Source: Parcubacteria group bacterium GW2011_GWA1_56_13 | GTDB taxonomy: Bacteria > Patescibacteriota > Minisyncoccia > Phycocordibacterales > Phycocordibacteraceae | Assembly: GCA_001004905.1 (NCBI GenBank) | Contig: LCRY01000002.1 | Coordinates: 115,577 to 179,576, forward strand | Length of the DNA: 64,000 bases | Direction: 5' to 3' | Shown here: positions 6,141 through 51,687 of the stretch, in pieces | How positions within the stretch are numbered: the stretch's first letter is position 1 | Layout of the letters: the number at the start of each line of letters is the position of its first letter | The notes under the pieces: generated by a model | Told to the model about the DNA's origin: nothing | The model's database searches: none | Seen by the model: only the letters and a program-made list of their open reading frames with translations | Position numbers and translations under genes: made by a program

Positions 6141-6294
6141 GCTTTCCGCGGCAAAGTCGACGTGTGCTTCAGTCGGCGTGGGGTGTGCATCAGACAACGC
6201 TGTCACACGGGATTCGCGGGCGCTCCGTATATCCATAGGCCCCAACGCTAACAGGTACACGATGAACAACCAGTGAATGCGCTATACTCAAAGC

Positions 6295-8532
6295 ATGTTG
6301 AAGCGGTTGGAGATCGTCGGATTCAAATCATTCGCCAAGAAAACGGTCTTGGAGTTCGCGAGCGCGACCACGGCGATCGTCGGACCGAACGGTTCGGGCA
6401 AGTCGAATGTGGCCGAAGCGTTCCGTTTCGCGCTTGGTGAACAATCAATGAAAAGTATGCGTGGGAAGCGAGCGGAGGATCTTATTTGGGGCGGCTCGCA
6501 TTCGGTTCCTCGCGCAAACCGCGGCTCGGTCGCCATCACGTTCGATAATTCCCGCCTGCCTGCGCAGGCAGGCCGCTCGTTCAGGATTGATTTTGACGAG
6601 GTCGTGATCGAACGGGCGGTTTTTCGCGACGGCACGAGCGAGTACTCCATCAACGGCTCGCGTGTCCGCCTGCGCGATATTCATGAGCTCTTAGCGAGCG
6701 CTAACATCGGCGAAACGGGCCACCACATCATTTCCCAGGGCGAATCGGACAGGATTCTGCTCGCCAATGCGCAAGAGCGGCGCGCGATGCTTGAAGATGC
6801 GCTCGGGCTCAAACTGTACGAATTCAAAAAACAGGAAGCGGCTCGGAAGCTCCTCAAGACCGAAGAGAACATCGCACAGGTCAACTCGCTCCGGAGGGAA
6901 CTCGCGCCGCACCTGCGGTTCTTGGAAAGCCAGGTGAAAAAGCTTGAACGAGCCGAAGAGCTCAAAAACGGACTTGTCGGACTCGCGCAGACCTATTTTG
7001 CCATCGAGGACGCGTATATCGCGCAGGAAAAGTCGAGGGTTAGTGCGGAGAAGAAGCGTGCGGCGGAGCGGCTCGCCGTCGCGGATGCCGAATTGAACCG
7101 AATCGCGGACCCGAAGACGGCGGATCACGAGACCGTCAAGCGGACCGAGATGTTGCGGAAGGCGGAGCGGGAAGTCGCCGAACTCTCCGCAGAGCGGGCG
7201 GCCCTTTCGCGCAACATCGGTCGCGTCGAGGGAGCACTCGAAGAAGTGAAACGCCGCGCGACCGTCGTTGCGCGCGAGCCGTACGCGAAAGTGCCGCGCG
7301 AGGAGCTTGAAGCGTTGCATCACGAAGTCGAGCGGCAGGCCGAAAGTGCCATGGGTGCCGACGGTACTCCCGAGGCGTTGCGCGCCGCGCTCACGGCTAT
7401 CCGCTCCGCGGTCAAGGTCTTCTTTTCGCGGCACGGAGCACCGCGCGACGAACGGTTTTCGGATGAAGAGGAATCCGCGTTCAAGCTGGAGACGGAACAC
7501 GCGGAACTCCTGAAAAAATATACGGCGGTGTCCGCCGCTCTTGAGAAAGCGGAATCCATACGCGCGCGCACGCGCGAGGCGATGGTCGCCTACGAAGAGA
7601 CCGGCCGCGAAGACCGCCGCCGCATTCTCGATTTCGCTCAAGCGAAGGCGCACGAAGAAGGCATCGTCGTCACATGCGAAGCGCGCGAACACGAACTTGC
7701 GCTTCTCCACGAAGCGCTTGAACGCGACAAACGCGAGGCGGTCGCCCTTGCGGGCCCGGCGGCGACTTCGTACATACCGCTTGCGGCGATGTCGCCGGAG
7801 GAACGCAAGGTTCAGGAGGACCGCAAACGCGCCTTGGAACGTATGAAGATCCGGTTGGAAGAAGCGGGAGGCACCGGCGAGGAAATACGGAGGGAACACG
7901 CGGAAGTGGCGGAGCGCGAAGCGTTCCTCGCCAAGGAACTCGACGACCTGGCGAAGTCGGCGGCCGGACTCGCCGCTCTCATCGGTGATCTAGACGCCGA
8001 ACTCGCGAAACATTTCTCCGAAGGGCTTGCGAAGGTCAACGCATCGTTCGGCGAATACTTCGCGCTCATGTTCGGCGGCGGCGGCGCCCGGCTTACACTT
8101 GAGGAACCGGAAGAACCAGAAGAACTGGACGGGGAGGAACAGGAAGAAGCCGTTGATGAACCGCAACCCGAACGGCGGCCGGGCATAGAGATAGCGGTCA
8201 ATCTGCCGAAGAAGAAGGTACGGTCCCTGATGCAGCTTTCAGGCGGCGAGCGCGCTCTCACATCCATTGCGCTCATATTCGCGATGAGCCAGGTGAATCC
8301 GCCGCCATTTTTGATACTGGACGAGACCGACGCCGCGCTTGATGAAGCGAACAGTCGGCGCTACGGCGACATGATAGAGAATCTCGCGAAAAAATCCCAA
8401 CTCATCGTCATCACCCACAACCGCGAAACGATGAGCCGCACGAACGTTCTCTATGGCGTTACCATGGGCGGCGATGGCGTGAGCAAATTGCTCTCGGTCA
8501 AATTCGAGGAAGCGGTAGCGGTCGCGAAATAA
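6295..8532 (+). CDS. smc: SMC-family chromosome segregation ATPase, unusually short (~745 aa)
   Basis: N-terminus MLKRLEIVGFKSFA...IVGPNGSGKSN (Walker A). C-terminus LSGGERALTSIALIFA...LDETDAALD (signature/Walker B). Coiled-coil middle; no obvious glycine-rich hinge. Confidence 0.75.
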   Translation: MLKRLEIVGFKSFAKKTVLEFASATTAIVGPNGSGKSNVAEAFRFALGEQSMKSMRGKRAEDLIWGGSHSVPRANRGSVAITFDNSRLPAQAGRSFRIDFDEVVIERAVFRDGTSEYSINGSRVRLRDIHELLASANIGETGHHIISQGESDRILLANAQERRAMLEDALGLKLYEFKKQEAARKLLKTEENIAQVNSLRRELAPHLRFLESQVKKLERAEELKNGLVGLAQTYFAIEDAYIAQEKSRVSAEKKRAAERLAVADAELNRIADPKTADHETVKRTEMLRKAEREVAELSAERAALSRNIGRVEGALEEVKRRATVVAREPYAKVPREELEALHHEVERQAESAMGADGTPEALRAALTAIRSAVKVFFSRHGAPRDERFSDEEESAFKLETEHAELLKKYTAVSAALEKAESIRARTREAMVAYEETGREDRRRILDFAQAKAHEEGIVVTCEAREHELALLHEALERDKREAVALAGPAATSYIPLAAMSPEERKVQEDRKRALERMKIRLEEAGGTGEEIRREHAEVAEREAFLAKELDDLAKSAAGLAALIGDLDAELAKHFSEGLAKVNASFGEYFALMFGGGGARLTLEEPEEPEELDGEEQEEAVDEPQPERRPGIEIAVNLPKKKVRSLMQLSGGERALTSIALIFAMSQVNPPPFLILDETDAALDEANSRRYGDMIENLAKKSQLIVITHNRETMSRTNVLYGVTMGGDGVSKLLSVKFEEAVAVAK

Positions 8533-12036: not shown

Positions 12037-12084
12037 GCTATACCACCACACCAACTTTGCGCTGAAGTTGGTGTGGTGGTATAG
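12037..12084. repeat. Perfect 20-bp-stem inverted repeat (ctataccaccacaccaactt ... aagttggtgtggtggtatag) in rnr/rpsP divergent region
   Basis: Exact reverse-complement arms with a 7-nt loop. Right arm carries TGgTATAGT, an extended -10 located 7 nt before the rpsP ATG. Confidence 0.45.
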
Positions 12085-12966: not shown

Positions 12967-13001
12967 CCATTTCCTTATTGCGAATCTTTTGCGTTTAGAT
13001 A
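12967..13001 (+). promoter_or_regulatory. Conserved 35/36-nt promoter-region motif, copy 1 (upstream of trmD)
   Basis: ccatttccttattgcgaatcttttgcgtttagata; near-identical copy at 43626-43661 upstream of zur. Confidence 0.4.
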
Positions 13002-17569: not shown

Positions 17570-20500
17570 ATGGCATTCACTCCCCGCAAATTTCCGCCCC
17601 GCGACACCTGGAATGGGCTGCGTCTCGCGCTCGCCTCGCCGGAACGCATCCTCGCATGGTCGTCCGGCGAAGTGACCAAACCCGAGACCATCAACTACCG
17701 CACCCAGCGCTCCGAAAAGCACGGACTTTTCGACGAGAAAATATTCGGTCCCGAAAAGGACTATGAATGCTACTGCGGCAAATATAAGGGCATCCGCTAC
17801 AAAGGCATCGTCTGCGACAAGTGCGGCGTGGAGATAACCCGTTCCATAGTCCGGCGCGAGCGCATGGGCCACATCGAACTGTGCACGCCGGTCGCGCACA
17901 TCTGGTTCCTGCGGAGCGTTCCTTCACGGATGGCGCTCTTGCTCGGTGCCTCCGCAACGGATATAGAGAAGGTCGTTTATTTCGCCGGCTACATCGTTTC
18001 CAAGATCGCCGAGGACGAAAAAAAGCGCCTTTTGACCGAACTCGAAGGCGAATATAAATCGAAATACAAGTCGCTTACCAGCGATAAAGAGCGTGATGCA
18101 TTGAAAGAGAAAATGACGCTCACGAAGGCGGAGATCGAGAGCGTCGTCGTCGGCAAAGTTCTTGACGAGCTCGAATACCACCGTTTCTCGGTGAAATACG
18201 GCGGGCTTTTCGAGGCGCGCATCGGTGCGGAAGCCATTTACGACATTTTCTGCAAGCTTGACCTGAAAGAACTCGAGAAGACACTTTCCGCACGCTATCA
18301 GCATGCGGGCACTGCCGAGCGCGAGAAGCTCGCGAAACGCCTTTCGCTTATTGCCGGACTCATCGCCTCCGGTGTGCGCCCCGAATGGCTCTTCCTTACG
18401 CGCATCCCCGTCATCCCGCCTGCGCTTCGGCCGATGGTCGCGCTTGAAGGCGGCCGCCACGCGACCTCCGACGTGAACGACCTTTACCGCCGTGTCATCA
18501 ACCGCAACAACCGTTTGAAGAAACTCATAGACATCCACGCGCCGGAAGTCATTCTCCGCAACGAAAAGCGCATCCTCCAAGAGGCGGTTGACGCTCTTTT
18601 GGACAATTCCATCCGCAAGAGCGGCGCCTCCGCGGGCGCCATGACGCTCGCCCAGCGCCGACCGCTCAAATCGCTCGCCGACTACCTGAAAGGAAAGCAG
18701 GGGTATTTCCGCCAGAACCTTCTCGGAAAACGCGTGGATTACTCGGGCCGTTCGGTCATCGTCGTCGGCCCCGATCTGGAGCTCGACGAATGCGGTTTGC
18801 CCAAACACATGGCGCTCGAGCTCTTCCGCCCGTTCGTCATCGCCGGTCTTCTCGATCGCGAACTTGCCTTCAACATTCGCGGCGCAGGCCGTCTCATCGA
18901 GGACGGCGTCGCGGAGGTGTGGGAGATCCTTGAAGAGGCCATCGCCGGTAAATATGTGCTCCTCAACCGCGCACCGACCCTGCACCGGCAGGGCATCCAA
19001 GCGTTCCGCCCGCAGCTTATCGAAGGCGACGCCATTCAGCTCCACCCGCTCGTGTGCAACGCGTTCAATGCCGACTTTGACGGCGACCAGATGGCCGTGC
19101 ACGTTCCGCTCTCGGAGGAAGCGCAGTGGGAGGCGAAGAATGTCATGAGCGCCAACAAGAATATCCTGAAGCCGGGCTCGGGCGACATGATCGTGCTCAC
19201 CGGGAAGCCGTTGGACATCATCCTCGGCGTGTACTGGCTCACGAAAGCGGTAGAGAAAGCGAAGGGCGAGGGCGAACACTTCGCATCGCCGAACGCGGCC
19301 ATTCTCGCGTCCGAATACGGCGCCGTCGATCTGCGCGCCAAGATCAAGGTCCTGCCAGTTTCCGGCAAAGAAAAATACGCGACCTTCGAGAATCGTCCGT
19401 TCGAGACGACCGTCGGGCGCCTTCTCTTCAACACCGTCCTTCCCGCCGACTACCCGTTCATCAACGAGACCATCACGAAGAAAGTCCTCTCGCGCATCGT
19501 CACCGACTGCATTACGCGCTATGGGCTCGATGCCGTGCCGGGCATCGTCAATAAGGTGAAACGCTTCGGCTTCGATTACGCGACCCGCTCTGGCATCTCA
19601 TGGGCGATCAACGATGTTTCCGTGCCGAAAGAGAAGACCCGCATCATTGATGGCGCCGTCGCAAAGGTCGCCGCTCTGGAGAAGGATTACCAAAACGGTC
19701 TCTTGTCCGAGGAAGAAAAGCGCCGTATGGCCATCGAGATATGGCAGGGCGCCAAGCAGGCGGTTGAGGAGGAGGTCGCGCTTGAACTTGACCCCATGGG
19801 TTCCGTCGCCGATATGGTGAGAAGCGGCGCGCGCGGAACGCTCGGCAACCTGACCCAGATGGCCGGCATGAAAGGCCTCATCCAGAACACGGCCGGCGTG
19901 ACCATCGAAGTGCCCATCATATCTTCGATGATCGAGGGGTTGAATCCCATCGAATACTTCATGAGCACCCACGGCGCGCGCAAAGGACTTACCGACACCG
20001 CGCTCGGGACCGCGAAGGCGGGTTACCTCACGCGCCGCCTCTTTGACGTGGCGCAGGATTCCATCGTGACCGAGAAGGACTGCGGCACCGCACGCGGCGT
20101 GAAGATCAATCGGATGAGCGCTTCCGGCATTCAGATCAATTACGCGGAGGCGCTTCGCGGCCGCGTGCTTGCGGAAGACGCAAAAGACCAGGACGGAACC
20201 GTCCTGTTCAAGAAAGGGCACTACCTTTCCAAGGGAGACGCCGAAGCTCTTGACGCTTCTTCGATCGCCACGGTCGTCTCGCGCTCGCCGATGTCCTGCG
20301 AGACGCGCTATGGCGTGTGCCAGACCTGCTACGGCATGGACCTTACGACGCAGGAATTGGTAGACCTCGGCGAAGCGGTCGGCACGGTCGCCGCGCAGGC
20401 CATCGGCGAGCCGGGCACCCAGCTCACGATGCGCACCTTCCACGCCGGCGGCGTCGCATCCATCGGCGGCGACATCACGAGCGGCCTCCCGCGCGTCGAG

Positions 20501-21289
20501 GAAGTGTTCGAGAAGCGCTCGCCGAAGAATCCGGCGGTCATATCAAAATCCGACGGCCTGGTCGCGGAGATAAAGGAAGAAGGGCGTGAGAAAGTTATCG
20601 TCGTCGCTCCGACGGCGGGGCAGGGCAAAAAGGACGGTTCGGCATACGAATACCTCGCGCCGTATCCGCGCGTGCCGCTCGTTAAAGCGGGCGATACGGT
20701 AGTGAGAGGGCAGATTTTGACCGACGGTTCCGCCGACCTCGACGATCTGTTCGAGTACGCGGGCCGCGCGGTAGTGCAGGAATATATCATCACCGAAGCG
20801 TCGAAGATCTACGAGATGCAGGGCGCATCCGTATCGCGCAAGCACCTGGAAGTGGTGGTGAAGCAGATGTTCTCGCGCGTGAAGATCACCGATGCCGGCG
20901 ACACCGACCATTCGGTCGGCGACGTCGTCGAGGATTGGGAATTCGCGAAAGTGATGGCGGAGATGGAAGGAGCGGACAAAATGGCGCCGAAGGCGCGCGA
21001 GATCGTACTTGGCATCAAGGAGAGCGCGCTCTCGCGCCGTTCGTTCCTCTCGGCGGCGTCCTTCGAACAGACGACGAAAATACTCATTAATGCGGCACTG
21101 CGGGGTTCCGTTGACCGCTTGCGCGGCCTCAAAGAGAACGTCATCCTCGGGCGACTTATTCCTTCCGGCACCGGCTTTGCGGGGAGCCAGAAGCACGCGC
21201 ACATTACGAAACTCCAGTCGGAGCGTCCGCCGTCCTCGGCCCCGTCCCGCACCACCAGTTTCGCCCCGCGCCAAACCCGCGCGCTCTAG
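17570..21289 (+). CDS. rpoC: DNA-directed RNA polymerase subunit beta'
   Basis: Zn-finger CYCGKYK...CDKCGVE, the NADFDGD catalytic motif, and trigger loop/bridge helix regions. Confidence 0.95.
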   Translation: MAFTPRKFPPRDTWNGLRLALASPERILAWSSGEVTKPETINYRTQRSEKHGLFDEKIFGPEKDYECYCGKYKGIRYKGIVCDKCGVEITRSIVRRERMGHIELCTPVAHIWFLRSVPSRMALLLGASATDIEKVVYFAGYIVSKIAEDEKKRLLTELEGEYKSKYKSLTSDKERDALKEKMTLTKAEIESVVVGKVLDELEYHRFSVKYGGLFEARIGAEAIYDIFCKLDLKELEKTLSARYQHAGTAEREKLAKRLSLIAGLIASGVRPEWLFLTRIPVIPPALRPMVALEGGRHATSDVNDLYRRVINRNNRLKKLIDIHAPEVILRNEKRILQEAVDALLDNSIRKSGASAGAMTLAQRRPLKSLADYLKGKQGYFRQNLLGKRVDYSGRSVIVVGPDLELDECGLPKHMALELFRPFVIAGLLDRELAFNIRGAGRLIEDGVAEVWEILEEAIAGKYVLLNRAPTLHRQGIQAFRPQLIEGDAIQLHPLVCNAFNADFDGDQMAVHVPLSEEAQWEAKNVMSANKNILKPGSGDMIVLTGKPLDIILGVYWLTKAVEKAKGEGEHFASPNAAILASEYGAVDLRAKIKVLPVSGKEKYATFENRPFETTVGRLLFNTVLPADYPFINETITKKVLSRIVTDCITRYGLDAVPGIVNKVKRFGFDYATRSGISWAINDVSVPKEKTRIIDGAVAKVAALEKDYQNGLLSEEEKRRMAIEIWQGAKQAVEEEVALELDPMGSVADMVRSGARGTLGNLTQMAGMKGLIQNTAGVTIEVPIISSMIEGLNPIEYFMSTHGARKGLTDTALGTAKAGYLTRRLFDVAQDSIVTEKDCGTARGVKINRMSASGIQINYAEALRGRVLAEDAKDQDGTVLFKKGHYLSKGDAEALDASSIATVVSRSPMSCETRYGVCQTCYGMDLTTQELVDLGEAVGTVAAQAIGEPGTQLTMRTFHAGGVASIGGDITSGLPRVEEVFEKRSPKNPAVISKSDGLVAEIKEEGREKVIVVAPTAGQGKKDGSAYEYLAPYPRVPLVKAGDTVVRGQILTDGSADLDDLFEYAGRAVVQEYIITEASKIYEMQGASVSRKHLEVVVKQMFSRVKITDAGDTDHSVGDVVEDWEFAKVMAEMEGADKMAPKAREIVLGIKESALSRRSFLSAASFEQTTKILINAALRGSVDRLRGLKENVILGRLIPSGTGFAGSQKHAHITKLQSERPPSSAPSRTTSFAPRQTRAL

Positions 21290-21300
21290 AGCTTCGCGCC

Positions 21301-21392
21301 GCGTGCGATTTTTGAGCACAGCGTAATTTTCTGCTGAAAATTCGCTCCGCTCTCGCGCCATCGCGCTGCGAGAGTCCCAAAAATCGCACGCG
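21301..21392. repeat. ~90-bp palindromic (MITE/RPE-like) element, copy A, intergenic rpoC-dnaG
   Basis: Terminal inverted repeats cgcGTGCGATTTTTG / CAAAAATCGCACgcg and internal ATTTTCtgctGAAAAT palindrome. Second copy at 32251-32338. Confidence 0.6.
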
Positions 21393-21412
21393 GTGCTTCA
21401 CTTAAAATATAA

Positions 21413-21450
21413 AAACGGCGCGGAACCTTGGAAGGTTCTCGCGCCGCCTG
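21413..21450 (-). terminator. Intrinsic terminator for minus-strand small ORF (hairpin + TTTTTATATTTT on minus strand)
   Basis: cggcgcggaacc...ggttctcgcgccg hairpin followed on the minus strand by a T-run. Confidence 0.4.
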
Positions 21451-21463: not shown

Positions 21464-21622
21464 TCACCATCGCTTTAAGAAGATCCATATAAGAGCGATG
21501 ATGCCGCCCAGCAGAACCATGGTTCCGATGAGATTGGATGAATCGGGTATCCGAATGATGTACATCCCAAGACCGATGTCGCCAATCGCAAGCGTTCCGA
21601 GCACTAACGGTTCGATTTTCAT
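21464..21622 (-). CDS. Small membrane protein (52 aa, 2 predicted TM). Not in the ORF track
   Basis: MKIEPLVLGTLAIGDIGLGMYIIRIPDSSNLIGTMVLLGGIIALIWIFLKRW. SD GGAGGGG 2-4 nt before the ATG; followed by a terminator. Confidence 0.4.
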   Translation of the reverse strand: MKIEPLVLGTLAIGDIGLGMYIIRIPDSSNLIGTMVLLGGIIALIWIFLKRW

Positions 21623-21709: not shown

Positions 21710-23389
21710 ATGGCCACCGACAGCGTCGCGCAGATCAAGGAGCGCTTGAACATACAGGACATCATTGCTCCATACGTGAAGCTCAAGAGAGCGGGCAGAT
21801 CGCTCGTGGGTCTGTGCCCGTTCCATAAAGAAAAGACGCCGAGTTTCCATGTCAGCCCCGAGCGCGGCACGTGGCATTGTTTCGGTTGCGGGCTCGGCGG
21901 CGACGGCTTCTCGTTCATCGAAAAAGTCGAAGGAGTGGATTTCAAAGGAGCTCTGAAAATACTGGCGGAGAAGGCGGGTGTCACTATCGAGTATCAGGGA
22001 AGCGGAAATCGCGAAGACGCGTCGAAAAAAGAGCGCCTACGCTCCCTTATGAGCCGTGCAAGCGAATGGTATGCGGGCAAGCTCCCGGGGAGCCCGGCCG
22101 AAGCGTATGCGAAAGCGCGCAGCATGACCGAAGAAACCATCCGCGCGTGGCGCCTCGGCCACGCCCCGGAGGCGTGGCGCGCGCTCCTTGAGGCGCTCAC
22201 GACTGAAGGGTTCACGATAGAAGAACTCCTTTCCACCGGACTTATCAAGGAGGCAGACGGCAAAAAAGGCACGTACTACGACCGCTTCCGCAACCGGCTC
22301 GTGTTCCCGATACGCGACACCGCCGGTCGCGTCGTCGCGTTTACCGGTCGCGCCCTTGCCGCGGACGACCAGGCGAAGTATCTCAATAGTCCGGAAACGG
22401 AGCTCTATCATAAATCCGAGATACTTTTCGGCATGGACTCCGCGAAGGACGCGATACGGACGCGCAAGTTCACGATGCTCGTCGAAGGGCAGATAGACGT
22501 CCTGCTTGCGCACCAGGCGGGCTTTCAGAACGCCGTGGCGCTCTCGGGCACGGCTCTCTCCGAGAAACATCTTGCCCTCATGAAGCGTTATAGCGAGAAT
22601 CTCATGCTTATTCTCGACGCCGACATGGCGGGCCTCAAGGCGACCGCGCGCTCGGCGGAACTGGCCCTGCGGCACGGCCTACGCGTGAAGGCGGTCCGGC
22701 TCCCGACAGGGAAGGACCCGGCGGACCTCGTCAAAGAAGACGCAAAAGAGTTTGCCAAGCGCGTCGCCGCGGCAAAACCAATCGTCGAGTTCTTTCTCGC
22801 GGAGCTTGCGGAGAAAGAGCATGACTCGCACCGCCTCTTGCGGTCCGCCGAAGAGATAGTACTTCCGCTCATACGCGCCATGCCGAGCCCCATGGAGCGC
22901 GAACACTTTACGCAATCAACGGCGCGCGTGCTCGGCTTAAGCACTGAGGCGGTCCGCGAATCCCTCGCGAAATTGCCGCAGGTGCATGCGGAAGAATCCA
23001 TGAAGCGCGCAGGTACCGCCGAAACCGCGAAGCGTTCCGCGCGCCAGTTGCGCGAGGAAATGCTTCTGGCCGTTGTCCACGTGTATCCCGGTACCCCGCT
23101 TGCAGAGCGCATCAAGTCAGAGTATTGTCGAATTACTGGAGCCCATCAGCTTCCCGCTGACGTCCCTCAAGAACCGGCCCTCTTCCAAGCGGAACAGGCA
23201 TTCGGCGAGGAACCTGCGGAAGAAGCGGGAGATGAGCTTCTTCGCGCCTTTGAAGAAGCGACTATTCGCGAGGCGTATCAAGAAGCAGTCACACGGTTGC
23301 GAAGGGCCGAAGCCGCGCTCGATGCGGCGGCGGTTCAAAGTGCACAGGAAGCGTGCGCCGTGCTCTCGGCGCGTCTCTCGGTATTTTGA
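21710..23389 (+). CDS. dnaG: DNA primase
   Basis: CHC2 zinc finger [13 protein letters not shown]...HCFGCG. TOPRIM region ([18 protein letters not shown]). Confidence 0.9.
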
Positions 23390-29397: not shown

Positions 29398-30633
29398 TCA
29401 GTCGTTTGAGCGGAGGCGCGCGGTCAGTGCCGCCACGTTCATCTCGGATTCCTCGCCGGTCGCGAGGATTTTCATGCGCACCGTTTTCCGCGCCACCTCA
29501 TCCGCGCCATAGGCGACGAAGAGCGGGATGCCGCGCTTCACGGCATCCCTTATCTGGTCGCCCAGCGCGCGACCGGTCAGATTGACGAAAATGTGTCCGC
29601 CGTCCCTGCGCAGAGCGTCGGCAAAGCTCTGTGCGGCGGGAATATCGCCTGCGGTCGGTGTGCCCAGATACAGCTGGGGGCGGCCCGCGCGGGACTCCTG
29701 TACGAAGCCATGCGTTTTCAGGAAGTCGGCGAGCGTGACATCGCCGAGCGCGAAGCCGACCGCCGGAATGGGGTCCCCGCCCCAAAGCGCGACGAGGCCG
29801 TCGTAGCGGCCGCCGCCGAACAGGGAACGCGGGTTCGCCGGGTTCGTGTCGAAGACCTCGAACACCATGCCGGTGTAGTAATCGAAGCCGCGCGTGATAC
29901 CCGCATCAAAAACAGCATTGCCAACCCCGCGTTCCTTGAGCGTCGCGACAAGCGCCTGGACGGGTTTCGGGTCGATGAGAGAAAGGGGATCCGTGCTGGA
30001 TATCGCCTCCGACGCGGCCTTGAATTCCTCGGGACGCATTTTCGCTCTTTTGTCCAAAAGTCGGATGTACCGCCGGATATCGTCGCCCGCAAGACCGGCC
30101 GCCGCGCACGCGGCGTTCAGAAGCGAACGCGAACTGATGCGAATGATGAAATCTTTTTCAGACGCGCCGAACGCCTTCAGTATCTCCGAAGCAAGCCGCA
30201 CTATCTCGATGTCCGCCTCGCCTTCGGGGAGCCCGATCAGGTCTATGTCCGCCTGATAGAACTCGCGCAGGCGGCCTTTCTGGGGCCGTTCGTAGCGGAA
30301 CCGGTTGCCGACGGAGAACCACCGGAGCGGGAACGCGAGCTCGCGGCGCTTGGCCGCGACCATGCGCGCGAGAGTCGGCGTCATTTCCGGCCGCAAGGTT
30401 ACGGGCCGGTCGCCGCGGTCGGTAAAGGTATAGGTCTGCTCGTTCACTATCTCCTCGGAGGTCTTCGCTTCGTAGAGTTCGGCGCGCTCAAGCGGGGAGG
30501 CGTTGTATTCTTCGTAGCCCCAGAGGGAGAGCACTTCCCGGATACGCGCGAACATCGTATCCATCCGCGCCCAATCGCTCGGATAAAAATCGCGGACGCC
30601 CTTGTAGGGGTCGGTGGAAAGAGGCGCGGACAT
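29398..30633 (-). CDS. hisS: Histidine--tRNA ligase
   Basis: Class II aaRS motifs (RPEMTPTLARM, FRYERPQKGRLREFYQ, GGGRYD) and a C-terminal anticodon-binding domain. Confidence 0.9.
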   Translation of the reverse strand: MSAPLSTDPYKGVRDFYPSDWARMDTMFARIREVLSLWGYEEYNASPLERAELYEAKTSEEIVNEQTYTFTDRGDRPVTLRPEMTPTLARMVAAKRRELAFPLRWFSVGNRFRYERPQKGRLREFYQADIDLIGLPEGEADIEIVRLASEILKAFGASEKDFIIRISSRSLLNAACAAAGLAGDDIRRYIRLLDKRAKMRPEEFKAASEAISSTDPLSLIDPKPVQALVATLKERGVGNAVFDAGITRGFDYYTGMVFEVFDTNPANPRSLFGGGRYDGLVALWGGDPIPAVGFALGDVTLADFLKTHGFVQESRAGRPQLYLGTPTAGDIPAAQSFADALRRDGGHIFVNLTGRALGDQIRDAVKRGIPLFVAYGADEVARKTVRMKILATGEESEMNVAALTARLRSND

Positions 30634-31740: not shown

Positions 31741-32547
31741 TTATCTCACGGGTCGAACTACGATAATGCGCGGCTTATCGTACTGGTCGGTGCGTATCGC
31801 GGCTGGAAGACCTTGTCGCGCGAACAGCGCGCACACGGCTTCCGCGTGGCTCGTGTCGCATTCTATCCACGCGACGCCTCCTGTTGCGAGATGTTTCGGG
31901 AGGTCTTTCGCGATGCGGCGGATGACTGCAAGGCCGTCGTCTCCGGCGTACAGCGCGCCGCTCGGCTCGTACTCGGCGACGCTCGACGGAAGCACTTGGT
32001 TGGCGGGCACATAGGGCGGGTTCGCGGCGATGATATCAAACTGCATGCCGGCGAAAGGTTCAAAGAGGTCGCCGATGCGCACATCCGCGCGCGAGCTGTC
32101 GAGGCCGTTCTCGCGTATGTTCTTTCGAATGATTGCCTCGTGCGCGGGGTCGAGCTCGCCGAAATACACCTGTGCGTTCGGCAGGCGCGCGAGCGGCGCA
32201 CAGCCGATAGCGCCGCTTCCGGCACAGAGGTCAAGGAAGTGCAGTTCATGAGTGCGATTTCCGGGCACAGAATCATTTTCTGCTGAAAATGTTCTTCCTG
32301 CTCGATCCGTCGATCTGTGCAGAGTCCCAGAAATCGCACTCATGAGCTGCTCCGTCCACCATTCCGTTTCGGGGCGGGGAATGAGCGGTTTCGAGTCCAG
32401 ATAGATTTTCAGGCCGAGAAAGGGCTGCCAGCCGATGACGTATGCGAGCGGCTCGCCGCGGACGAGCCGCTCGCGGTCCGCTTCGTATGCCGGTGTGCGG
32501 AGGCCGCCGTATTTCTCGTCCAATAGCAGCCGTTCATCTCGGGTCAT
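31741..32547 (-). CDS. prmC: Release-factor glutamine N5-methyltransferase (HemK) carrying an in-frame palindromic-element insertion
   Basis: LDLCAGSGAIG SAM motif, NPPY catalytic motif, PRPETE linker. Linker region expanded by ~25-30 aa that coincide with repeat copy B. Confidence 0.85.
   Translation of the reverse strand: MTRDERLLLDEKYGGLRTPAYEADRERLVRGEPLAYVIGWQPFLGLKIYLDSKPLIPRPETEWWTEQLMSAISGTLHRSTDRAGRTFSAENDSVPGNRTHELHFLDLCAGSGAIGCAPLARLPNAQVYFGELDPAHEAIIRKNIRENGLDSSRADVRIGDLFEPFAGMQFDIIAANPPYVPANQVLPSSVAEYEPSGALYAGDDGLAVIRRIAKDLPKHLATGGVAWIECDTSHAEAVCALFARQGLPAAIRTDQYDKPRIIVVRPVR
32251..32338. repeat. ~88-bp palindromic element, copy B, located inside the prmC reading frame
   Basis: tcatgaGTGCGATTTcc...ATTTTCTGCTGAAAAT...ccagAAATCGCACtcatga; ~75% identical to copy A (21301-21392) with the same architecture. 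Confidence 0.6.
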
Positions 32548-32991: not shown

Positions 32992-33143
32992 GTATTGGAT
33001 TTAACTGATTAACCTCGCCGAAACTGAACACGTGTGGTCTTGTGGACCCTGCGACGCTCGAATACTCTGCGAGTTGGGGGAGTATGACAGGAATATGCTC
33101 GGAACGCAAGCGGCGTAACGGCGCGCTGGGGATAATACCCGTC

Positions 33144-33917
33144 GGGCAATACAAGGTTCCACCTTGTATTGCCCGGCGGTGATAAGATTATCGGCATGAA
33201 TAGAAAAATTTCTTTTGCCGAAGGGGAGTACTATCACGTTTACAGCAGGGGAGTCGAAAAACGCAAAATTTTTTTGGATGGCAAAGATCGGGAGCGCTTC
33301 CAGGCGCTTTTATTTTTGTGCAATGGTTCAAAACCAGTTGTGTATAGATTGATACAAGGTTCCACCTTGTATCAAACTGATGTGGGGGAAAAGATTGTCG
33401 CCGTCGGTGCCTATGCGTTTATGCCGAATCATATTCACATCTTGGTCAAGGAAATTTCAGAAAATGGCATTACTGAATTCATGCGGAAAGTGAACACTGC
33501 CTATTCAATGTATTTCAATAAAAAATACGAGAGAGTCGGGCCTCTTTTCCAAGGTACTTTTGCCGCTGAACATGTAACCCGAGATGAGCACTTGAAATAT
33601 TTATTTGCCTACATCCACTTAAATATCGTAAAACTCATCGAGCCAAAATGGAAAGAAGAGGGAATTAAAGATCTGAAAAAAGCGAGAGGGTATCTTGAAG
33701 CGTACCCGTTTTCGAGTTATTCGAGCTACACCGGGAAAGTGCGCAAGGAAGATACCATATTGTCAAAAAATGAGTTCCCAAAATATTTCTCGCATCAACA
33801 TGATTTCAAAGATTTTGTTGACGAATGGCTCACATTCGGCCCGCAAAATTTTGACCCGTAGCACAGAATTCCAGTACAAGGTGGAACCTTGTAATACAAG
33901 GTTCCACCTTGTACTGT
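33144..33917 (+). mobile_element. REP-associated tyrosine transposase (RAYT) unit: tnpA_REP gene flanked by REP hairpins
   Basis: REP hairpins gggcaatacaagg-ttcca-ccttgtattgccc at 33144-33176, an internal copy at 33351-33373, and a double inverted copy (44-bp perfect palindrome) at 33873-33917. Local GC ~45%. Confidence 0.7.
33196..33861 (+). CDS. IS200/IS605-family Y1 (HUH) transposase, REP-associated (TnpA_REP/RAYT)
   Basis: YHVYSRGV N-terminal motif, HUH motif MPNHIHILV, catalytic Tyr region AYSMYFNKKY. Start MNRKISFAEGEYYH. Confidence 0.8.
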   Translation: MNRKISFAEGEYYHVYSRGVEKRKIFLDGKDRERFQALLFLCNGSKPVVYRLIQGSTLYQTDVGEKIVAVGAYAFMPNHIHILVKEISENGITEFMRKVNTAYSMYFNKKYERVGPLFQGTFAAEHVTRDEHLKYLFAYIHLNIVKLIEPKWKEEGIKDLKKARGYLEAYPFSSYSSYTGKVRKEDTILSKNEFPKYFSHQHDFKDFVDEWLTFGPQNFDP

Positions 33918-41765: not shown

Positions 41766-42257
41766 ATGGGAAACCCGCAATCAGTGCTCCACGAGGTCGC
41801 GATAACGGCCATCATCGCGAAGGACGGAAAATATCTCATCACGCGCCGCGCGAAGACAAAAAAGCGGTTCCCGGGCAAATGGACCGTGCCGGGCGGCAAG
41901 CTCGAAACGAGCGACTATATGCGGTTCTCGAAAGACACTCACGACTATTGGTACAACGTCCTCGAGTGCGTTCTCCACAGAGAAGTACAGGAGGAAGTAG
42001 GTCTCGCGATAAAAAATATCGAGTACGTAACCTCGCTCGCGACCGTGCATGCCGACGGCGCGCCATCGCTCGTCATTTCCTGCATGGCGGACTGGGACAG
42101 CGGGGACGTAACGCTCGACAAAAAAGAGGCGGACGCATACGCCTGGGTGACGCCCGAGGAAGCCGGATCGTACGACCTCATCGCGGGCATCCAGGAGGAG
42201 ATACAAATGGCGGACGCGCGGCGCAAGGGCGAACGATCGGAGTGGAAGCGGTCATAA
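41766..42257 (+). CDS. NUDIX hydrolase
   Basis: Nudix box GGKLETSDYMRFSKDTHDYWYNVLECVLHREVQEEVGL. Confidence 0.8.
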   Translation: MGNPQSVLHEVAITAIIAKDGKYLITRRAKTKKRFPGKWTVPGGKLETSDYMRFSKDTHDYWYNVLECVLHREVQEEVGLAIKNIEYVTSLATVHADGAPSLVISCMADWDSGDVTLDKKEADAYAWVTPEEAGSYDLIAGIQEEIQMADARRKGERSEWKRS

Positions 42258-42290
42258 CATACAACAGCGGCCGCGCAGAGCGCGGCCGGG

Positions 42291-42761
42291 TCAGACAAAG
42301 AAAGGAAAGAAGACGACTCGCGGTTTCTTGTTGCGCGGCCGGTGGTATACATGCGCTCGGAACTTCTCTCCTTGAACTGCGCGGAGAAACCATTCGCGGT
42401 CGAGCTCGGGCATGAGCTGAAGCGGGATATCTTTAACGGGATACCAGCATGGCGTCATGGTCTCCGTTTCGCGCGGGCTGTCCTTGAAGTAGCTCGTGTG
42501 GAAGACGTGCAGTTCGAGATCCGGCACATCCGCCACTATGTAGGAGACGATAACGGCCACTCGCTCCAGTTTTCTCGGGTTGAGCAGAATGCCGGCTTCG
42601 TTGTGGGCCGCGCGCACCAGACACTGGGCAAGTGTCTCGTTCTTCTGCTGTTTCGCGCCCGGTCCGCTTAGCGAGCTTCCTCCGACTTCCGCCTCAGCCC
42701 TCTTTACGCCGAGCAGGACCTGGTTCCACCGCGTGATGATGCCAAACGTTGCGATTTCCAC
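42291..42761 (-). CDS. NUDIX hydrolase (MutT-like)
   Basis: GAKQQKNETLAQCLVRAAHNEAGI approximates the Gx5Ex7REUxEExGU Nudix motif. SD GGAGGAG before the ATG. Confidence 0.65.
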   Translation of the reverse strand: MEIATFGIITRWNQVLLGVKRAEAEVGGSSLSGPGAKQQKNETLAQCLVRAAHNEAGILLNPRKLERVAVIVSYIVADVPDLELHVFHTSYFKDSPRETETMTPCWYPVKDIPLQLMPELDREWFLRAVQGEKFRAHVYHRPRNKKPRVVFFPFFV

Positions 42762-43542: not shown

Positions 43543-43561
43543 GCTGGTTCGACAGACGAAA

Positions 43562-43597
43562 AGCGCGGTACCGCCAGGCGGTACCGCGCTTTTTGTA
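43562..43597 (+). terminator. Strong intrinsic terminator (14-bp stem agcgcggtaccgcc/ggcggtaccgcgct + TTTTGTATAT)
   Basis: Perfect palindrome with a following T tract 20 nt after the dsbA-like stop. Confidence 0.65.
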
Positions 43598-43625: not shown

Positions 43626-43661
43626 CCATTTTCTTATTGCGAATCTTTTGCATTTAGGATA
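43626..43661 (+). promoter_or_regulatory. Conserved 36-nt promoter-region motif, copy 2 (upstream of zur)
   Basis: ccattttcttattgcgaatcttttgcatttaggata; 33/35 identical (+1 indel) to 12967-13001. Confidence 0.4.
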
Positions 43662-49176: not shown

Positions 49177-51687
49177 ATGGCCAAACAAGAACGGCCCCCC
49201 CGTAAAATCAAAAGAGGACCCGAGATGTCTCCTGCTGCGCCTAAGACCACGGTGGGCATTGCTTTGGAAGAAGCGATTAAGAAAAATGGCGGTTGGCACC
49301 CGAATGGGTCCGAGGATGAGGCGCAGGCGGAAGCGGTACGGCGGTGGGAAAACGAAGGAGGAAGGATAGTCGAGGAGCCGAAAACGGAGAAGCGGGCAGA
49401 ACAAGCGTCGGAGAACATAGAGGAATTTCGAGACCTTATACATAAGGCGATAGAAAATCCGCCGGAAACGCCTGCACCGAACCGATTTTCAGGACCCGCA
49501 GAGGCTGCCTATCGTGAACTTGCTGAAATTACGAGAAGAGCAGGGGTTAAACCGGAAGATTTGGATGAAAAAGTGTGGAAGGGTGCTAACGCGGCGCTGG
49601 ATAAGGTCAAAAGATTCGCTCAATTGCGCTCTGAAACGCAGGATAAGGAGAAAATAAAGCAGCTAGATGAGCGGATTCGACAGGCGACCGCCAGTTTGGT
49701 AAGTAGAAAAATGAGAGAGAAAATTGAAAAAGCAGCGCGAGAGACTCTAGAAAAAGAAAAATCGAAAGTAAAAACCGAGGTGGCGGGTGCTACAGATGCA
49801 ACTACAAAGGTCAACTCTAAGGCGGAGTCTGAGGCGCCACATCCGGAAGAAGACGGCGGCGACGCGGTGCCGCCTGAGCAGTCGAAGGCAGAACGGGAGA
49901 ATCTCTACGAACTTTACACGAGAAAGCAGAGGGAAAATGCCGCACCTGCTGACTCGATAGCGGCGGAACCGGCAACTCCCAAGTCAGCAGAACAACTGCA
50001 AGCCGAAAACGAGATGCTGCGGAGAATAGGAAAAAAGCTTTCCGCTACAGAGATGAGGGAGCCGACACAAGAGGAAGTCGGACACATGGCTGTCAGTCCG
50101 GAAGATGTTCCGGAACACATCCGGGAACGTCTCGCCGCCGAGGGCACGAGAAGCGAGATGGTCGAGCGTCTGAAAGGCGTAGTCCGAAGCGCGCAAGGGA
50201 AGCTGTACGAAGCGGGTGTTGCGGCGCAGGAAAAAATCGCGTGGTGGAAGAGCTCCGAAGAGCATCTTGTCCGGCGCTCGGCGGAATTGGATGCCGAGGC
50301 GGCGGAGATTGGCTGGGTGGAAAGCGAGTTCAGGAAATGGGGCGAGCGCTATAACAAAGTCGGCTGGAAGACGAAACTCGCTGTAGGCCTTGCTCTTGGT
50401 ATCGGAGCAGGACTTTCCGCACCTGTCTCGATGCCTATGGCCGCTGCTTGCCTGTTTGGCGTCGCAGCCCAGCGCATCCTCGGTCTCTCGACGATGTATC
50501 TGAAATACGAGAAGGTATTCCAAGATCAAAAATGGGGGAAGGAGCGTGCCATGCTGAATGCAATTGGATATTCCGCCCTCATGACCGCGGGCACGATGTA
50601 CGCGGTACAAAAAATCAGCGATGCCGACATAGTCAGCCGCGTCCGCGAATGGCTTGCCGATAAGCTGGGACACCAGACGCCGCCGAGGCCGGAAGTATCG
50701 CAGCCGATGGTTACAACGGGTACGGGTCCCGGTGCAGAGATACCGCCGCTCACCGTCCATGCGGCGCCCGGGCAAGGTTACGAGTACATGCTGCAGCGGA
50801 TGTGGGAACAGTTGCAGGACAAGGGCCTCGACCCGAACCGGTATCCCGAAGGCAGCGATATTCGGCAGCTGCTTGAAACGGCGCCGCAAGATATCGACAA
50901 GGTCGTGCATCAGCTTGCGAGCGACCCGAGCCATGGCTTCTTCAGGCCCGACGGCACAAGCGCGCCCATCGGAAAAGGCGATATTCTGGCGTTCAACACG
51001 GGCGGCCAGATACTGCACATAAACCCCGAAGGCGTGGCCGGCGTTCACGCGGCTATCGAAGCGCCTGTGCCGGTCTACCATCCGGAAGTTCCTACTCCCG
51101 CGTCCGCAGTGCCGCTTCCCGAACAGGTCGTCCCCGCGCAAGATCCGGTAGCGAACATAGACCTCACTCCCGGCCAACAGGCAGTACAAGAAGGAACGCA
51201 GGCCGCGGTCACCGCGGCCCCGCCCCCTGAAGCGATGCCGCGAGAGCCCGAACACATACTCTTGCGCGACAGCTCCGGCAACCCGGTCACCGACAGCTCC
51301 GGGAACCCGGTCCGCTCGCAATTCCCCGAACACGCCGCATCCATTGAGGCGCCTATTGCGAACGCCGAGGTCGTCTCAAATCAGTTCGGTCTCGCGATAC
51401 CGGTCACCGAACCGCATATCTACGGTGACGAGGGCGGACAGCAGATACTTGTGTACGGCGGGACGCCGCAAGAGCAGCTGAAGGCGATGCAGGACTTTCT
51501 CATAAAAAATCCGGGCAAAGTCGTTTTCGGCACCGATCCTTCCGGGAAATACCGCATTCCCTGGGGGCTCGTGGAAGGGGAATTATCGCCTATCGGCCAG
51601 CCAGTGCGCACGAGCGGCTTCTTCGGATTCTTTTCGTCCTTTATGGAAGCGCCCGGAGCGGATGAACTAAAGCAGCTTATTAAATAA
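49177..51687 (+). CDS. Large hypothetical membrane protein (836 aa): charged coiled-coil N-terminus, 3 central TM helices, Pro-rich C-terminus
   Basis: Coding-like composition with a purine-rich 5' part. TM segments LAVGLALGIGAGL, AAACLFGVAAQRIL, AIGYSALMTAGTMYAV. 4-nt gap after the ATPase gene. Confidence 0.55.
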   Translation: MAKQERPPRKIKRGPEMSPAAPKTTVGIALEEAIKKNGGWHPNGSEDEAQAEAVRRWENEGGRIVEEPKTEKRAEQASENIEEFRDLIHKAIENPPETPAPNRFSGPAEAAYRELAEITRRAGVKPEDLDEKVWKGANAALDKVKRFAQLRSETQDKEKIKQLDERIRQATASLVSRKMREKIEKAARETLEKEKSKVKTEVAGATDATTKVNSKAESEAPHPEEDGGDAVPPEQSKAERENLYELYTRKQRENAAPADSIAAEPATPKSAEQLQAENEMLRRIGKKLSATEMREPTQEEVGHMAVSPEDVPEHIRERLAAEGTRSEMVERLKGVVRSAQGKLYEAGVAAQEKIAWWKSSEEHLVRRSAELDAEAAEIGWVESEFRKWGERYNKVGWKTKLAVGLALGIGAGLSAPVSMPMAAACLFGVAAQRILGLSTMYLKYEKVFQDQKWGKERAMLNAIGYSALMTAGTMYAVQKISDADIVSRVREWLADKLGHQTPPRPEVSQPMVTTGTGPGAEIPPLTVHAAPGQGYEYMLQRMWEQLQDKGLDPNRYPEGSDIRQLLETAPQDIDKVVHQLASDPSHGFFRPDGTSAPIGKGDILAFNTGGQILHINPEGVAGVHAAIEAPVPVYHPEVPTPASAVPLPEQVVPAQDPVANIDLTPGQQAVQEGTQAAVTAAPPPEAMPREPEHILLRDSSGNPVTDSSGNPVRSQFPEHAASIEAPIANAEVVSNQFGLAIPVTEPHIYGDEGGQQILVYGGTPQEQLKAMQDFLIKNPGKVVFGTDPSGKYRIPWGLVEGELSPIGQPVRTSGFFGFFSSFMEAPGADELKQLIK

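What the first reader, a model, noticed from the sequence alone, without database searches (positions are those of the whole stretch)
21301..21392. New ~90-bp palindromic repeat family (two copies in this window)
Copies at 21301-21392 and 32251-32338 share the architecture [GTGCGATTT(t/c)..GGCACAG..]-ATTTTCTGCTGAAAAT-[..CTG(c/t)(g/a)GAGTCCCA(a/g)AAATCGCAC]. The 15-16-bp terminal inverted repeats and the internal 6-4-6 palindrome are ~75% identical overall. Copy A is intergenic (rpoC-dnaG). Size and structure resemble MITEs or Rickettsia RPE/Correia-like elements.
Basis: seen in the sequence. Interest (0 to 1): 0.65.

Follow-up and report, generated by a model that had tools for sequence, protein, structure and literature searches.

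The report
Palindromic selfish DNA in CPR genes
The two ~90-bp palindromes are real copies of an undescribed family of small hairpin-forming DNA elements found in several lineages of ultra-small (CPR) bacteria; like the palindromic elements of Rickettsia, they sit after genes and also, in frame, inside essential genes.

Summary
Copies A (21296-21396, just after rpoC) and B (32241-32350) share one architecture, and their flanks are unrelated.

Each copy folds as a three-way junction:
- a long terminal stem (P1);
- hairpin 1, the near-invariant ATTTTC-TGCT-GAAAAT;
- hairpin 2, with variable stems but a conserved CGTC loop and internal loop.

I found related copies at seven kinds of genomic site in Paceibacteria/Nomurabacteria-like and Saccharibacteria genomes. 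No Rfam family matches, and four of my five literature searches, aimed at such elements in CPR bacteria, found no description of them there.

The PrmC interdomain linker and a TsaD surface loop are insertion hot spots. They hold this element in both orientations and all reading frames, singly, in tandem or nested. Other palindromic families also occupy them, and occupancy is patchy among close relatives.

In one genome, two copies have near-identical cores but unrelated outer stems. Across 15 copies, 28 of 36 stem pairs covary, with almost no G-U intermediates.

Best reading (about 0.6): a low-copy, non-autonomous, selfish palindromic DNA element that works like Rickettsia RPEs. It does not meet the criteria for MITE, Correia or REP. 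How it moves is unknown.

The parts
21296..21396 (.). Copy A of the element (called E1 here), whole unit from outer stem to outer stem. It starts 6 nt after the rpoC stop codon, between rpoC (+) and a small hydrophobic ORF on the minus strand.
   Evidence: I9; 103.8 bits, E 1.5e-21
21296..21314 (.). Copy A, 5' arm of terminal stem P1. It pairs with 21378-21396.
   Evidence: 19 nt, 95% complementary
21320..21346 (.). Copy A, hairpin 1: AGCG-U-AAUUUUC UGCU GAAAAUU-CGCU
21349..21375 (.). Copy A, hairpin 2. The loop is CATC here; most other copies have CGTC.
21378..21396 (.). Copy A, 3' arm of P1
32241..32350 (.). Copy B of E1, whole unit, inside the PrmC gene
   Evidence: I13; 106.5 bits, E 3.6e-22
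32241..32265 (.). Copy B, 5' arm of P1. It pairs with 32326-32350.
   Evidence: 25 nt, 92% complementary
32269..32295 (.). Copy B, hairpin 1: AGAA-U-CAUUUUC UGCU GAAAAUG-UUCU
32298..32322 (.). Copy B, hairpin 2: CUGC-UC-GAUC CGUC GAUC-UGU-GCAG
32326..32350 (.). Copy B, 3' arm of P1
31741..32547 (-). PrmC/HemK-family methyltransferase gene that hosts copy B. The element supplies residues about 70-101 (SAISGTLHRSTDRAGRTFSAENDSVPGNRTHE), between the PRPETE motif and the LDLCAGSG motif.
   Evidence: insert has pLDDT 49-65; most flanking 10-residue blocks 78-94

Best explanation
E1 is a small (about 85-110 bp), non-coding, non-autonomous palindromic DNA element of CPR/Patescibacteria. It behaves as selfish DNA in the manner of Rickettsia palindromic elements.

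Shown:
- It consists of a conserved core (two hairpins at a three-way junction) closed by a long, nearly perfect terminal stem. The inner 6-13 bp of that stem are shared within a lineage. The outer part is specific to each site.
- It occupies a few permissive places per genome: spacers directly after stop codons, and surface or linker loops of housekeeping proteins.
- Where it lies in a gene it is always a multiple of three in length and free of stop codons, so it is read through and adds about 30 residues.

Inferred:
- It is copied between such places at the DNA level, by transposition, by gene conversion, or by replication template switching between copies. The fit is preferentially into existing palindromes or resident elements. 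This would explain nesting, tandem copies, shared hot spots and identical cores with unrelated outer stems.
- The strand that matters folds as single-stranded DNA. The conserved loops and junction would then be what an unidentified, structure-specific enzyme recognises.
- Frame and stop-codon status in genes are the result of selection on the host gene, not a property of the element.
For: 1. Dispersed family. True copies lie in the PrmC linker, a TsaD loop, and spacers after rpoC, an rpoD-like gene, a frr-like gene and rnhB. One lies between convergent dsbA-like and PDDEXK genes. Host genomes range from 37 to 59% GC and are titled Nomurabacteria and Saccharibacteria.

2. Patchy occupancy.
- The relative L004 has a short PrmC linker and a plain terminator after rpoC.
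- Of 106 PrmC homologues, 35 are short, 29 carry E1, 25 carry a second palindromic family (E2), 10 carry a third and 7 are other.
- Nearest neighbours (83-94% identical outside the linker) share the same state in only 39 of 106 cases.

3. Conservation is at the nucleotide level, not the protein level. The same hairpin is read as FSAEN, IFSRKL or IFQQKN in different homologues. Both orientations occur in the TsaD site, including two tandem copies in opposite orientation.

4. Copying between sites.
- L026's two copies share a 63-nt core with one mismatch, but their outer stems are unrelated.
- L032 has E2 at the same two sites where L026 has E1.
- L004 keeps what I read by eye as a truncated E1 remnant at one of those sites; I made no alignment.
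- L025 has a 58-nt hairpin nested in the loop of hairpin 1.

5. DNA-type palindromy. 91% of cells are paired and 28 of 36 pairs show double changes. None of 500 shuffles reaches this, and slid controls give 37-51%. Only 10 G-U and 23 A-C cells occur among 526.

6. Strand asymmetry. In 18 of 18 copies the same strand folds 1-12 kcal/mol better, whatever the direction of the host gene.

7. The insert is a low-confidence excursion in the PrmC model.

8. No Rfam family matches.
Against: - I did not observe mobility directly. I found no filled and empty pair among near-identical strains, so the exact insertion boundaries are unknown.
- I saw no target-site duplication and no transposase or longer parent element.
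- Copy number is low: about 1 extra copy per 100 kb in 218 kb of PrmC-anchored sequence.
- Within one clade the PrmC copy is as conserved as, or more conserved than, the flanking coding DNA (75-91% against 68-83%). The unpaired loops are conserved across phylum-level distances. This could instead reflect a function useful to the host.
- Retrieval was biased. DNA scans required TTTTCTGCTGAAAA and GAGTCCC(A). Intragenic copies found through predicted proteins are necessarily open reading frames.
Confidence: 0.6

Rival explanations
1. E1 is a host-useful, cis-acting structured RNA. It would be part of the mRNA and act as a terminator, a 3' stabiliser, a binding site for an RNA-binding protein, or a ribosome-pausing structure at protein domain boundaries.
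For: - Stems covary strongly while loops and junction are conserved.
- Spacer copies start within a few nucleotides of stop codons.
- In the PrmC copies, the mismatches in hairpin 2 on one strand are G-U pairs on the mRNA-sense strand.
- The element is as conserved as, or more conserved than, the flanking coding DNA within one clade.
- Even short PrmC alleles appear to encode a hairpin. L004 shows one in its DNA. In the others I infer it by back-translating the linker peptides (HVG..SYM, YVG..SYI, NVG..SYI).
Against: - Orientation relative to transcription is not constant. It is antisense-type in PrmC, sense-type after the rpoD-like gene, rnhB and the frr-like gene and in one TsaD, and both orientations occur in tandem in another TsaD.
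- The better-folding strand is the same in 18 of 18 copies, whatever the gene direction.
- G-U pairs are very rare for an RNA family (10 of 526 cells).
- Unrelated palindromic families occupy the same sites, and many relatives lack any insert.
- No clear T-run follows P1 in copy A.
Confidence: 0.15
2. E1 is a DNA-level functional site rather than a parasite. It would be a folded single-strand or cruciform site used by a structure-specific enzyme. Examples are a recombination site comparable to an integron attC or a dif-like site, or a single-strand priming or nicking signal. Such a site would belong to the host or to another mobile element.
For: - Sequence is conserved in loops and junction, while the stems need only pair. 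This is the pattern seen in attC sites (established knowledge).
- There is a consistent strand asymmetry.
- Stems are near-perfect Watson-Crick.
- The same places are used repeatedly by different families.
Against: - No integrase, cassette array or recombinase is consistently next to the copies (gene lists).
- The Y1 transposase 0.8 kb from copy B has its own, different flanking hairpins.
- Sites inside essential genes are an odd place for a recombination site.
- attC-type terminal motifs are not evident in the sequences read (inspection only, no scan).
Confidence: 0.12
3. E1 is a small RNA gene or a self-cleaving or self-splicing ribozyme that is removed from the host transcripts.
For: - The three-way junction with conserved unpaired nucleotides is of a size typical of small ribozymes.
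- It is not in Rfam, so it would be new.
Against: - I found no hammerhead core motifs by inspection, and no ribozyme family was matched by the Rfam searches.
- All 13 intragenic copies read as DNA are in frame and free of stops. Three of them (L002's two and L008's) came from DNA scans blind to ORFs. This is expected only if the insert is translated.
- It occurs in both orientations.
- There are several copies per genome at unrelated places.
Confidence: 0.05

Closest known systems
Rickettsia palindromic elements (RPE-1 to RPE-10; Ogata et al. 2000, as summarised in PMC10969869)
   Same: - Both are small palindromic repeats in a reduced-genome, host-dependent bacterium.
- Both are found in spacers and, in frame, inside unrelated housekeeping genes, where they are read through.
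- Both add a peptide at a place the fold tolerates.
- In both cases no transposase is known.
   Different: - The lineage is different (CPR, not Rickettsia). I did not compare the sequences with RPEs.
- E1 is shorter (85-110 bp against about 100-150 bp).
- E1 has a three-way-junction core that is more conserved than its terminal stem.
- E1 occurs in all reading frames and both orientations at one site, so no conserved peptide results. RPE copies encode a conserved peptide.
- E1 reuses a few hot spots together with other palindromic families.
- Copy number per genome appears to be lower.
Bacterial MITEs, including Correia/NEMIS elements of Neisseria
   Same: Size, terminal inverted repeats, no coding capacity, a location near gene ends, and a hairpin when transcribed.
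   Different: - I saw no target-site duplication. Correia elements have a TA duplication.
- The terminal repeats vary in sequence and length between copies while the interior is conserved, which is the reverse of a MITE.
- I found no related insertion sequence.
- There are a few copies per genome rather than tens to hundreds.
REP/BIME elements and GTAG- or CGTC-tagged REPs, with their RAYT transposases (Di Nocera et al. 2013, PMC3733652)
   Same: - Both are palindromic repeats placed mostly after genes and between convergent genes.
- Some REPs are also intragenic.
- CGTC-tagged REPs likewise lack a known transposase, and two of those families equal RPE-4 and RPE-6.
- A Y1 (IS200/RAYT-like) transposase gene lies 0.8 kb from copy B.
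   Different: - REPs are simple hairpins of 20-40 bp with the tetranucleotide tag unpaired at one end, and they are present in high copy number.
- E1 is a composite three-way junction.
- Its CGTC is the loop of an internal hairpin.
- The neighbouring Y1 gene is flanked by a different hairpin (TACAAGGT-TCC-ACCTTGTA).
Integron attC sites
   Same: Both are imperfect palindromes of 57-141 bp in which structure, not stem sequence, is conserved. In attC one particular strand is the active folded form.
   Different: E1 has no integrase and no cassette array, and I saw no R/L box motifs. E1 also has two internal hairpins and lies inside genes.

Membership tests
Rickettsia palindromic elements (as a kind of element) | Palindromic repeat of about 100-150 bp present at several unrelated loci | tested here: met
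   The units are 85-110 bp and lie at seven kinds of site in many genomes. They are somewhat shorter than RPEs.
Rickettsia palindromic elements (as a kind of element) | In-frame insertion into protein-coding genes, read through as extra peptide at a tolerated position | tested here: met
   - PrmC linker.
- TsaD loop.
- The copies found by DNA scans blind to ORFs (L002's two and L008's) are also in frame and free of stops.
- The insert has low pLDDT in the PrmC model.
Rickettsia palindromic elements (as a kind of element) | Sequence homology to one of the RPE families, and occurrence in Rickettsia | not tested
   No RPE sequences were available in the collections I searched. The hosts here are CPR bacteria according to record titles. 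Homology is therefore neither shown nor expected.
Rickettsia palindromic elements (as a kind of element) | Copies encode a conserved peptide (same frame and orientation) | tested here: not met
   At least three frames occur in PrmC, and both orientations occur in TsaD.
MITE | Terminal inverted repeats conserved in sequence across copies | tested here: not met
   P1 always pairs. However, only the inner 6-13 bp are shared within a lineage. P1 is unrelated between L001, L008, L026b, L027 and L028.
MITE | Target-site duplication flanking each copy | tested here: not met
   Inspection of the flanks of A, B and L026b showed no consistent direct repeat. A palindromic duplication hidden in P1 cannot be excluded.
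MITE | A related autonomous insertion sequence with the same ends | tested here: inconclusive
   There are no extra half-sites in the window and no transposase next to the copies. Whole genomes could not be searched.
MITE | Moderate to high copy number | tested here: not met
   There are 2 copies in the 64-kb window. Outside PrmC I found 2 copies in about 218 kb of anchored loci.
Correia/NEMIS | 26-bp conserved terminal repeats, TA duplication, IHF site, Neisseria host | tested here: not met
   The ends differ and there is no TA duplication. Reading hairpin 1 by eye I found no IHF consensus. The hosts are CPR bacteria.
REP / GTAG- or CGTC-tagged REP | Simple hairpin of 20-40 bp with an unpaired GTAG or CGTC at one end, in high copy number | tested here: not met
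   E1 is an 85-110-bp three-way junction. Its CGTC is an internal loop. Criteria taken from PMC3733652.
Known structured RNA families (Rfam 15) | Score at or above a family's gathering threshold | tested here: not met
   There are no matches in the window, L001 or L002. At permissive thresholds only generic microRNA-hairpin matches appear, far below their cut-offs.
Integron attC | R''/R' core sites, extrahelical bases, and an adjacent integrase or cassette array | not tested
   I ran no motif scan. No integrase is listed among the neighbouring genes.

The most novel reading that the evidence does not exclude
E1 and the other palindromic families that share its hot spots may represent a mode of DNA mobility not yet described. 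In this reading, a conserved three-way-junction core is copied into the apex of pre-existing hairpins ("hairpin homing"). The copying would be done either by a structure-specific enzyme acting on one folded DNA strand or by replication template switching between copies. The terminal stem would then be supplied by the target rather than carried by the element. This would explain four observations: identical cores with unrelated stems, nested and tandem copies, replacement of one family by another at fixed sites, and the absence of target duplications.
Probability: 0.18. Interest if true: 0.85.

Novelty: new variant of a known kind. Interest (0 to 1): 0.62.

Why it matters
- In-frame colonisation of essential genes by palindromic DNA is the textbook oddity of Rickettsia. 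These data show it also occurs in the Candidate Phyla Radiation, another group of reduced-genome, host-dependent bacteria. This makes it a recurring outcome of that lifestyle rather than a one-off.
- The element has a core more conserved than its ends, and it shares a few insertion hot spots with unrelated palindromic families. That points to a structure-dependent copying mechanism still to be found.
- In practice, these inserts inflate and disturb alignments of marker proteins such as PrmC and TsaD. They can be mistaken for lineage-specific protein features. They may also serve as strain markers.

Tried and rejected
- **Rfam.** I searched the window and two loci at gathering thresholds, and both copies at permissive thresholds. 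Only generic hairpin matches came up.
- **Peptide search.** I searched 1.84 billion representative proteins with the peptide encoded by copy B. The single hit was an unrelated repeat protein, so the search was uninformative.
- **Viral contigs.** One pattern gave six homologous phage contigs with no P1 stem visible in their flanks (not scanned with the model). A stricter pattern gave none.
- **Chance hits.** Metagenome hits L007, L015 and L017 look like chance on inspection. L011 gave no model match up to E = 10. L010 and L013 scored weakly (23 and 30 bits) and were left out.
- **Other long inverted repeats in the window** (7190-7305, 20278-20416, 29809-29950, 42255-42354, 50135-50284). These reach only z = -2.3 to -3.2 and were not pursued as members.
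- **Known motifs by inspection.** I found no hammerhead core. A partial resemblance of one copy to the XerC arm of dif is not shared by the other copies.
- **Neighbouring Y1 transposase as mobiliser.** Its flanking hairpin is a different sequence and occurs only around that gene.
- **Target-site duplications.** I found none that were consistent.
- **Insertion point of copy A.** I tried to define it by aligning the rpoC-dnaG spacers of relatives. The spacers are too diverged.
- **Small minus-strand ORF next to copy A.** It has positional but not detectable sequence counterparts in relatives.

Full report
**1. The observation**

ATTTTCTGCTGAAAAT occurs exactly twice in the window, against 0.00 expected from shuffles.

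- Copy A has arms 21296-21314 and 21378-21396 (19 nt, 95% complementary).
- Copy B has arms 32241-32265 and 32326-32350 (25 nt, 92% complementary).

The copies align at 73% over a 66-nt ungapped stretch, and mean column identity is 80% in a gapped alignment. Similarity ends at the outer stems, so this is not a segmental duplication. Both strands of both copies fold far better than shuffled sequence (z = -8.3 to -9.4).

**2. Context in the window**

The window has 57% GC. It encodes rpoC (17570-21289), dnaG (21710-23389), rpoD, hisS, an RRM protein and a PrmC/HemK-type methyltransferase. The nearest homologues carry the source names Minisyncoccota, Paceibacterota and Kaiserbacteria, so the organism belongs to the CPR/Patescibacteria.

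Copy A begins 6 nt after the rpoC stop codon. To its right lie a conserved terminator-like hairpin and a small hydrophobic ORF on the minus strand (21622-21464). That ORF has a promoter-like site upstream.

Copy B is not intergenic. It lies in frame in the PrmC ORF (31741-32547, minus strand) as residues 70-101, between the PRPETE motif and the LDLCAGSG motif. An AlphaFold model built on 56 homologues gives the insert pLDDT 49-65, against 78-94 for most flanking blocks.

**3. Anatomy**

All copies fold as a three-way junction:
- **Terminal stem P1.** It is 10-30 bp long and nearly perfect.
- **Hairpin 1.** A 3-4-bp outer stem, a bulged U, the stem AUUUUC/GAAAAU and the loop UGCU.
- **Hairpin 2.** A 3-4-bp outer stem, a conserved internal loop (UC on one side, UGY on the other), a 4-bp inner stem of variable sequence and the loop CGUC.
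- **Junction.** G(G/A)G..CAC on the 5' side and GAGUCCC on the 3' side.

**4. Relatives elsewhere**

One scan of GTDB species genomes and one of metagenomes, each with a two-block pattern, gave these hits:
- the orthologous PrmC site in a Nomurabacteria MAG (L002), which holds two tandem copies, and in L006;
- a copy after an rpoD-like gene in a Saccharibacteria MAG (L001/L014, 42% GC), with a completely different P1;
- a copy in frame in TsaD of a 37%-GC organism (L008/L016);
- a copy between a frr-like and an rseP-like gene (L009);
- a copy directly after rnhB (L012).

I built a covariance model from six copies. It finds only A and B in the window. It does recover the PrmC copies of five further genomes that I had fetched through protein homology, that is, without any DNA pattern. 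All five keep hairpin 1 almost unchanged. It also finds a second copy in L026, between convergent dsbA-like and PDDEXK genes. That copy has a 30-bp perfect P1 that overlaps the dsbA-like stop codon on one side and ends just short of the called end of the PDDEXK gene on the other.

Rfam has nothing. Four of my five literature searches targeted such elements in CPR bacteria or in-frame palindromic insertions. They found nothing describing them in CPR.

**5. Hot spots**

*PrmC.* Across 120 PrmC homologues the linker varies from 14 to 70 residues. Of the 106 I could classify:
- 35 are short;
- 29 carry E1;
- 25 carry a second palindromic family (E2), with core GTAGGACTTGGCC..CCGGAGCGCG;
- 10 carry a third family;
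- 7 are other.

E1 is read in at least three frames (FSAEN, IFSRKL, IFQQKN), so the nucleotide sequence is what is conserved, not the peptide. Occupancy is patchy. Nearest neighbours that are 83-94% identical outside the linker share the same state in only 39 of 106 cases.

Even the short alleles appear to be hairpins. L004 shows one in its DNA (GTTAGGACAT-CGG-ATGTCCTAAC). In the other short alleles, the amino-acid pairs HVG..SYM, YVG..SYI and NVG..SYI back-translate to covarying palindrome arms. That last point is my inference from the peptides.

*TsaD.* The loop of TsaD between YPGGP and FPRP behaves the same way in Nomurabacteria-like genomes. Of the 120 best homologues, 114 carry inserts of about 20-65 extra residues. 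This count is favoured by a query that itself has the insert. The inserts include E1 in both orientations, other families, and doubles. DNA confirms two tandem E1 copies in opposite orientation in L033, and a single copy in L034 in the orientation opposite to L008's.

**6. Copying between sites**

- L026's two copies share a 63-nt core with a single mismatch, yet their outer stems are unrelated.
- L032 carries E2 both in PrmC and in the same dsbA/PDDEXK spacer.
- L004 keeps what I read by eye as a truncated E1 remnant in that spacer; I made no alignment.
- L025, together with P0007 and P0012, has a 58-nt hairpin nested in the loop of hairpin 1.

Among PrmC orthologues the element is 75-91% identical within one clade, where the flanks are 68-83% identical. 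Between subfamilies it is only 43-67% identical, where the flanks are 63-80%. This fits turnover or overwriting of the resident copy by different lineages of the element. The within-clade conservation, however, also leaves room for a host function.

**7. DNA or RNA?**

On a model-guided alignment of 15 copies:
- 91% of cells are paired.
- 28 of 36 pairs show changes on both sides.
- No shuffle out of 500 reaches the observed values.
- Slid controls give 37-51% pairing.

One-sided changes are almost absent. There are 10 G-U cells and 23 A-C cells among 526. That pattern is unusual for an RNA family. It is what a DNA palindrome looks like when it is kept symmetrical by selection or by arm-to-arm template switching. 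The template-switching idea is my inference from established work on quasipalindrome correction.

Orientation relative to the host gene is not constant. In 18 of 18 copies, though, the strand reading TTTTCAGCAGAAAA folds 1-12 kcal/mol better. Part of this comes from conserved loops that all copies share, so the 18 values are not independent. I take it as weak support for one folded DNA strand being the relevant form.

**8. What it is**

The best reading is a low-copy, non-autonomous, selfish palindromic DNA element that works like the Rickettsia palindromic elements. It settles in spacers just after genes and, read through, in tolerant loops of housekeeping proteins. The RPE criteria are taken from PMC10969869.

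It is not a member of the known families:
- **MITE and Correia:** there is no target duplication, the ends are not conserved, no parent element was found, and copy number is low.
- **REP, including GTAG- and CGTC-tagged REPs:** the size and architecture do not fit (PMC3733652).

How it moves is not shown. The sharp boundary between identical cores and unrelated stems, together with the nesting and the shared sites, suggests insertion or conversion at pre-existing palindromes.

Three rivals remain open at lower probability: a host-useful RNA structure, a DNA site for a structure-specific enzyme, and a ribozyme or small RNA.

**9. Limits**

- The DNA scans required exact blocks of hairpin 1 and GAGTCCC(A). 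Conservation of those blocks is independent only in the five loci fetched through PrmC proteins (L024-L028) and the two fetched through TsaD proteins (L033, L034).
- I could not scan whole genomes, so copy number is an extrapolation from about 218 kb.
- I had no pairs of near-identical strains, so mobility rests on comparative inference.

Noticed in passing
window 33139-33916: This is a low-GC island. It holds a 230-aa ORF (33169-33861, +) that matches Pfam Y1_Tnp (IS200/RAYT-like tyrosine transposase). Perfect hairpins TACAAGGT-TCC-ACCTTGTA flank it at 33150 on the left and at 33875/33895 on the right. One more copy lies inside the gene at 33353. This hairpin occurs nowhere else in the window. 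The arrangement resembles a REP-associated transposase with its own palindromes. It lies 0.8 kb from copy B but is a different sequence.
   Followed up: partly
L031 7850-7990; L032 10185-10325 and 14790-14915: A second, unrelated palindromic element family (E2) has the core GTAGGACTTGGCC..CCGGAGCGCG and A/T-rich stems. It occupies the same PrmC linker site, and the same dsbA/PDDEXK spacer, that E1 occupies in other genomes. It is absent from the window.
   Followed up: partly
L025 10260-10320 (also proteins P0007, P0012, P0013): A 58-nt insertion that contains its own hairpin (TTTATTTTCT..AGAAAATAAA) is nested in the loop of hairpin 1 of the PrmC copy of E1. It adds 19 more residues in frame.
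   Followed up: partly
PrmC homologues P0043, P0044, P0047, P0055, P0078, P0081 and others; L004 10205-10235: PrmC alleles without an element still appear to encode a short hairpin at the same place. L004 shows one in its DNA. In the others, the amino-acid pairs HVG..SYM, YVG..SYI and NVG..SYI change together in a way that would keep a DNA palindrome (CATGTAGG/CCTACATG and variants). The arms contain GTAGGAC, also found in family E2.
   Followed up: partly
TsaD homologues P0122-P0241: Besides E1, the TsaD loop carries at least three more recurrent insert types: GVSQADGPRGSAPRARGDSDPEK, ENFSGPRFSGSLSQPDHEKS and FSGSLSPRARGALPLGPSACETPRK. I did not examine these at the DNA level.
   Followed up: no
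window 12967-12998 and 43626-43657: A 32-nt repeat, CCATTT(C/T)CTTATTGCGAATCTTTTGC(G/A)TTTAG, is 94% identical between the two copies. Both lie in spacers upstream of plus-strand ORFs. It reads like a shared promoter (TTGCGA, 17 nt, TAGCAT in the second copy).
   Followed up: partly
window 21417-21446 and 21464-21622 (-): A hairpin (GGCGCGGAACC..GGTTCTCGCGCC) is conserved in the rpoC-dnaG spacers of L027 and L032. Next to it is a 52-aa hydrophobic ORF on the opposite strand, with a promoter-like site at 21678-21650. Relatives have small hydrophobic ORFs at the same position, but without detectable sequence similarity.
   Followed up: partly
window 7190-7305, 12038-12084, 43556-43596: Other long inverted repeats are present: a nested 105-nt one inside ORF 6277-8532 (z = -2.7 only), and two perfect or near-perfect 20-bp hairpins in spacers. 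They are not related to E1 by sequence.
   Followed up: partly
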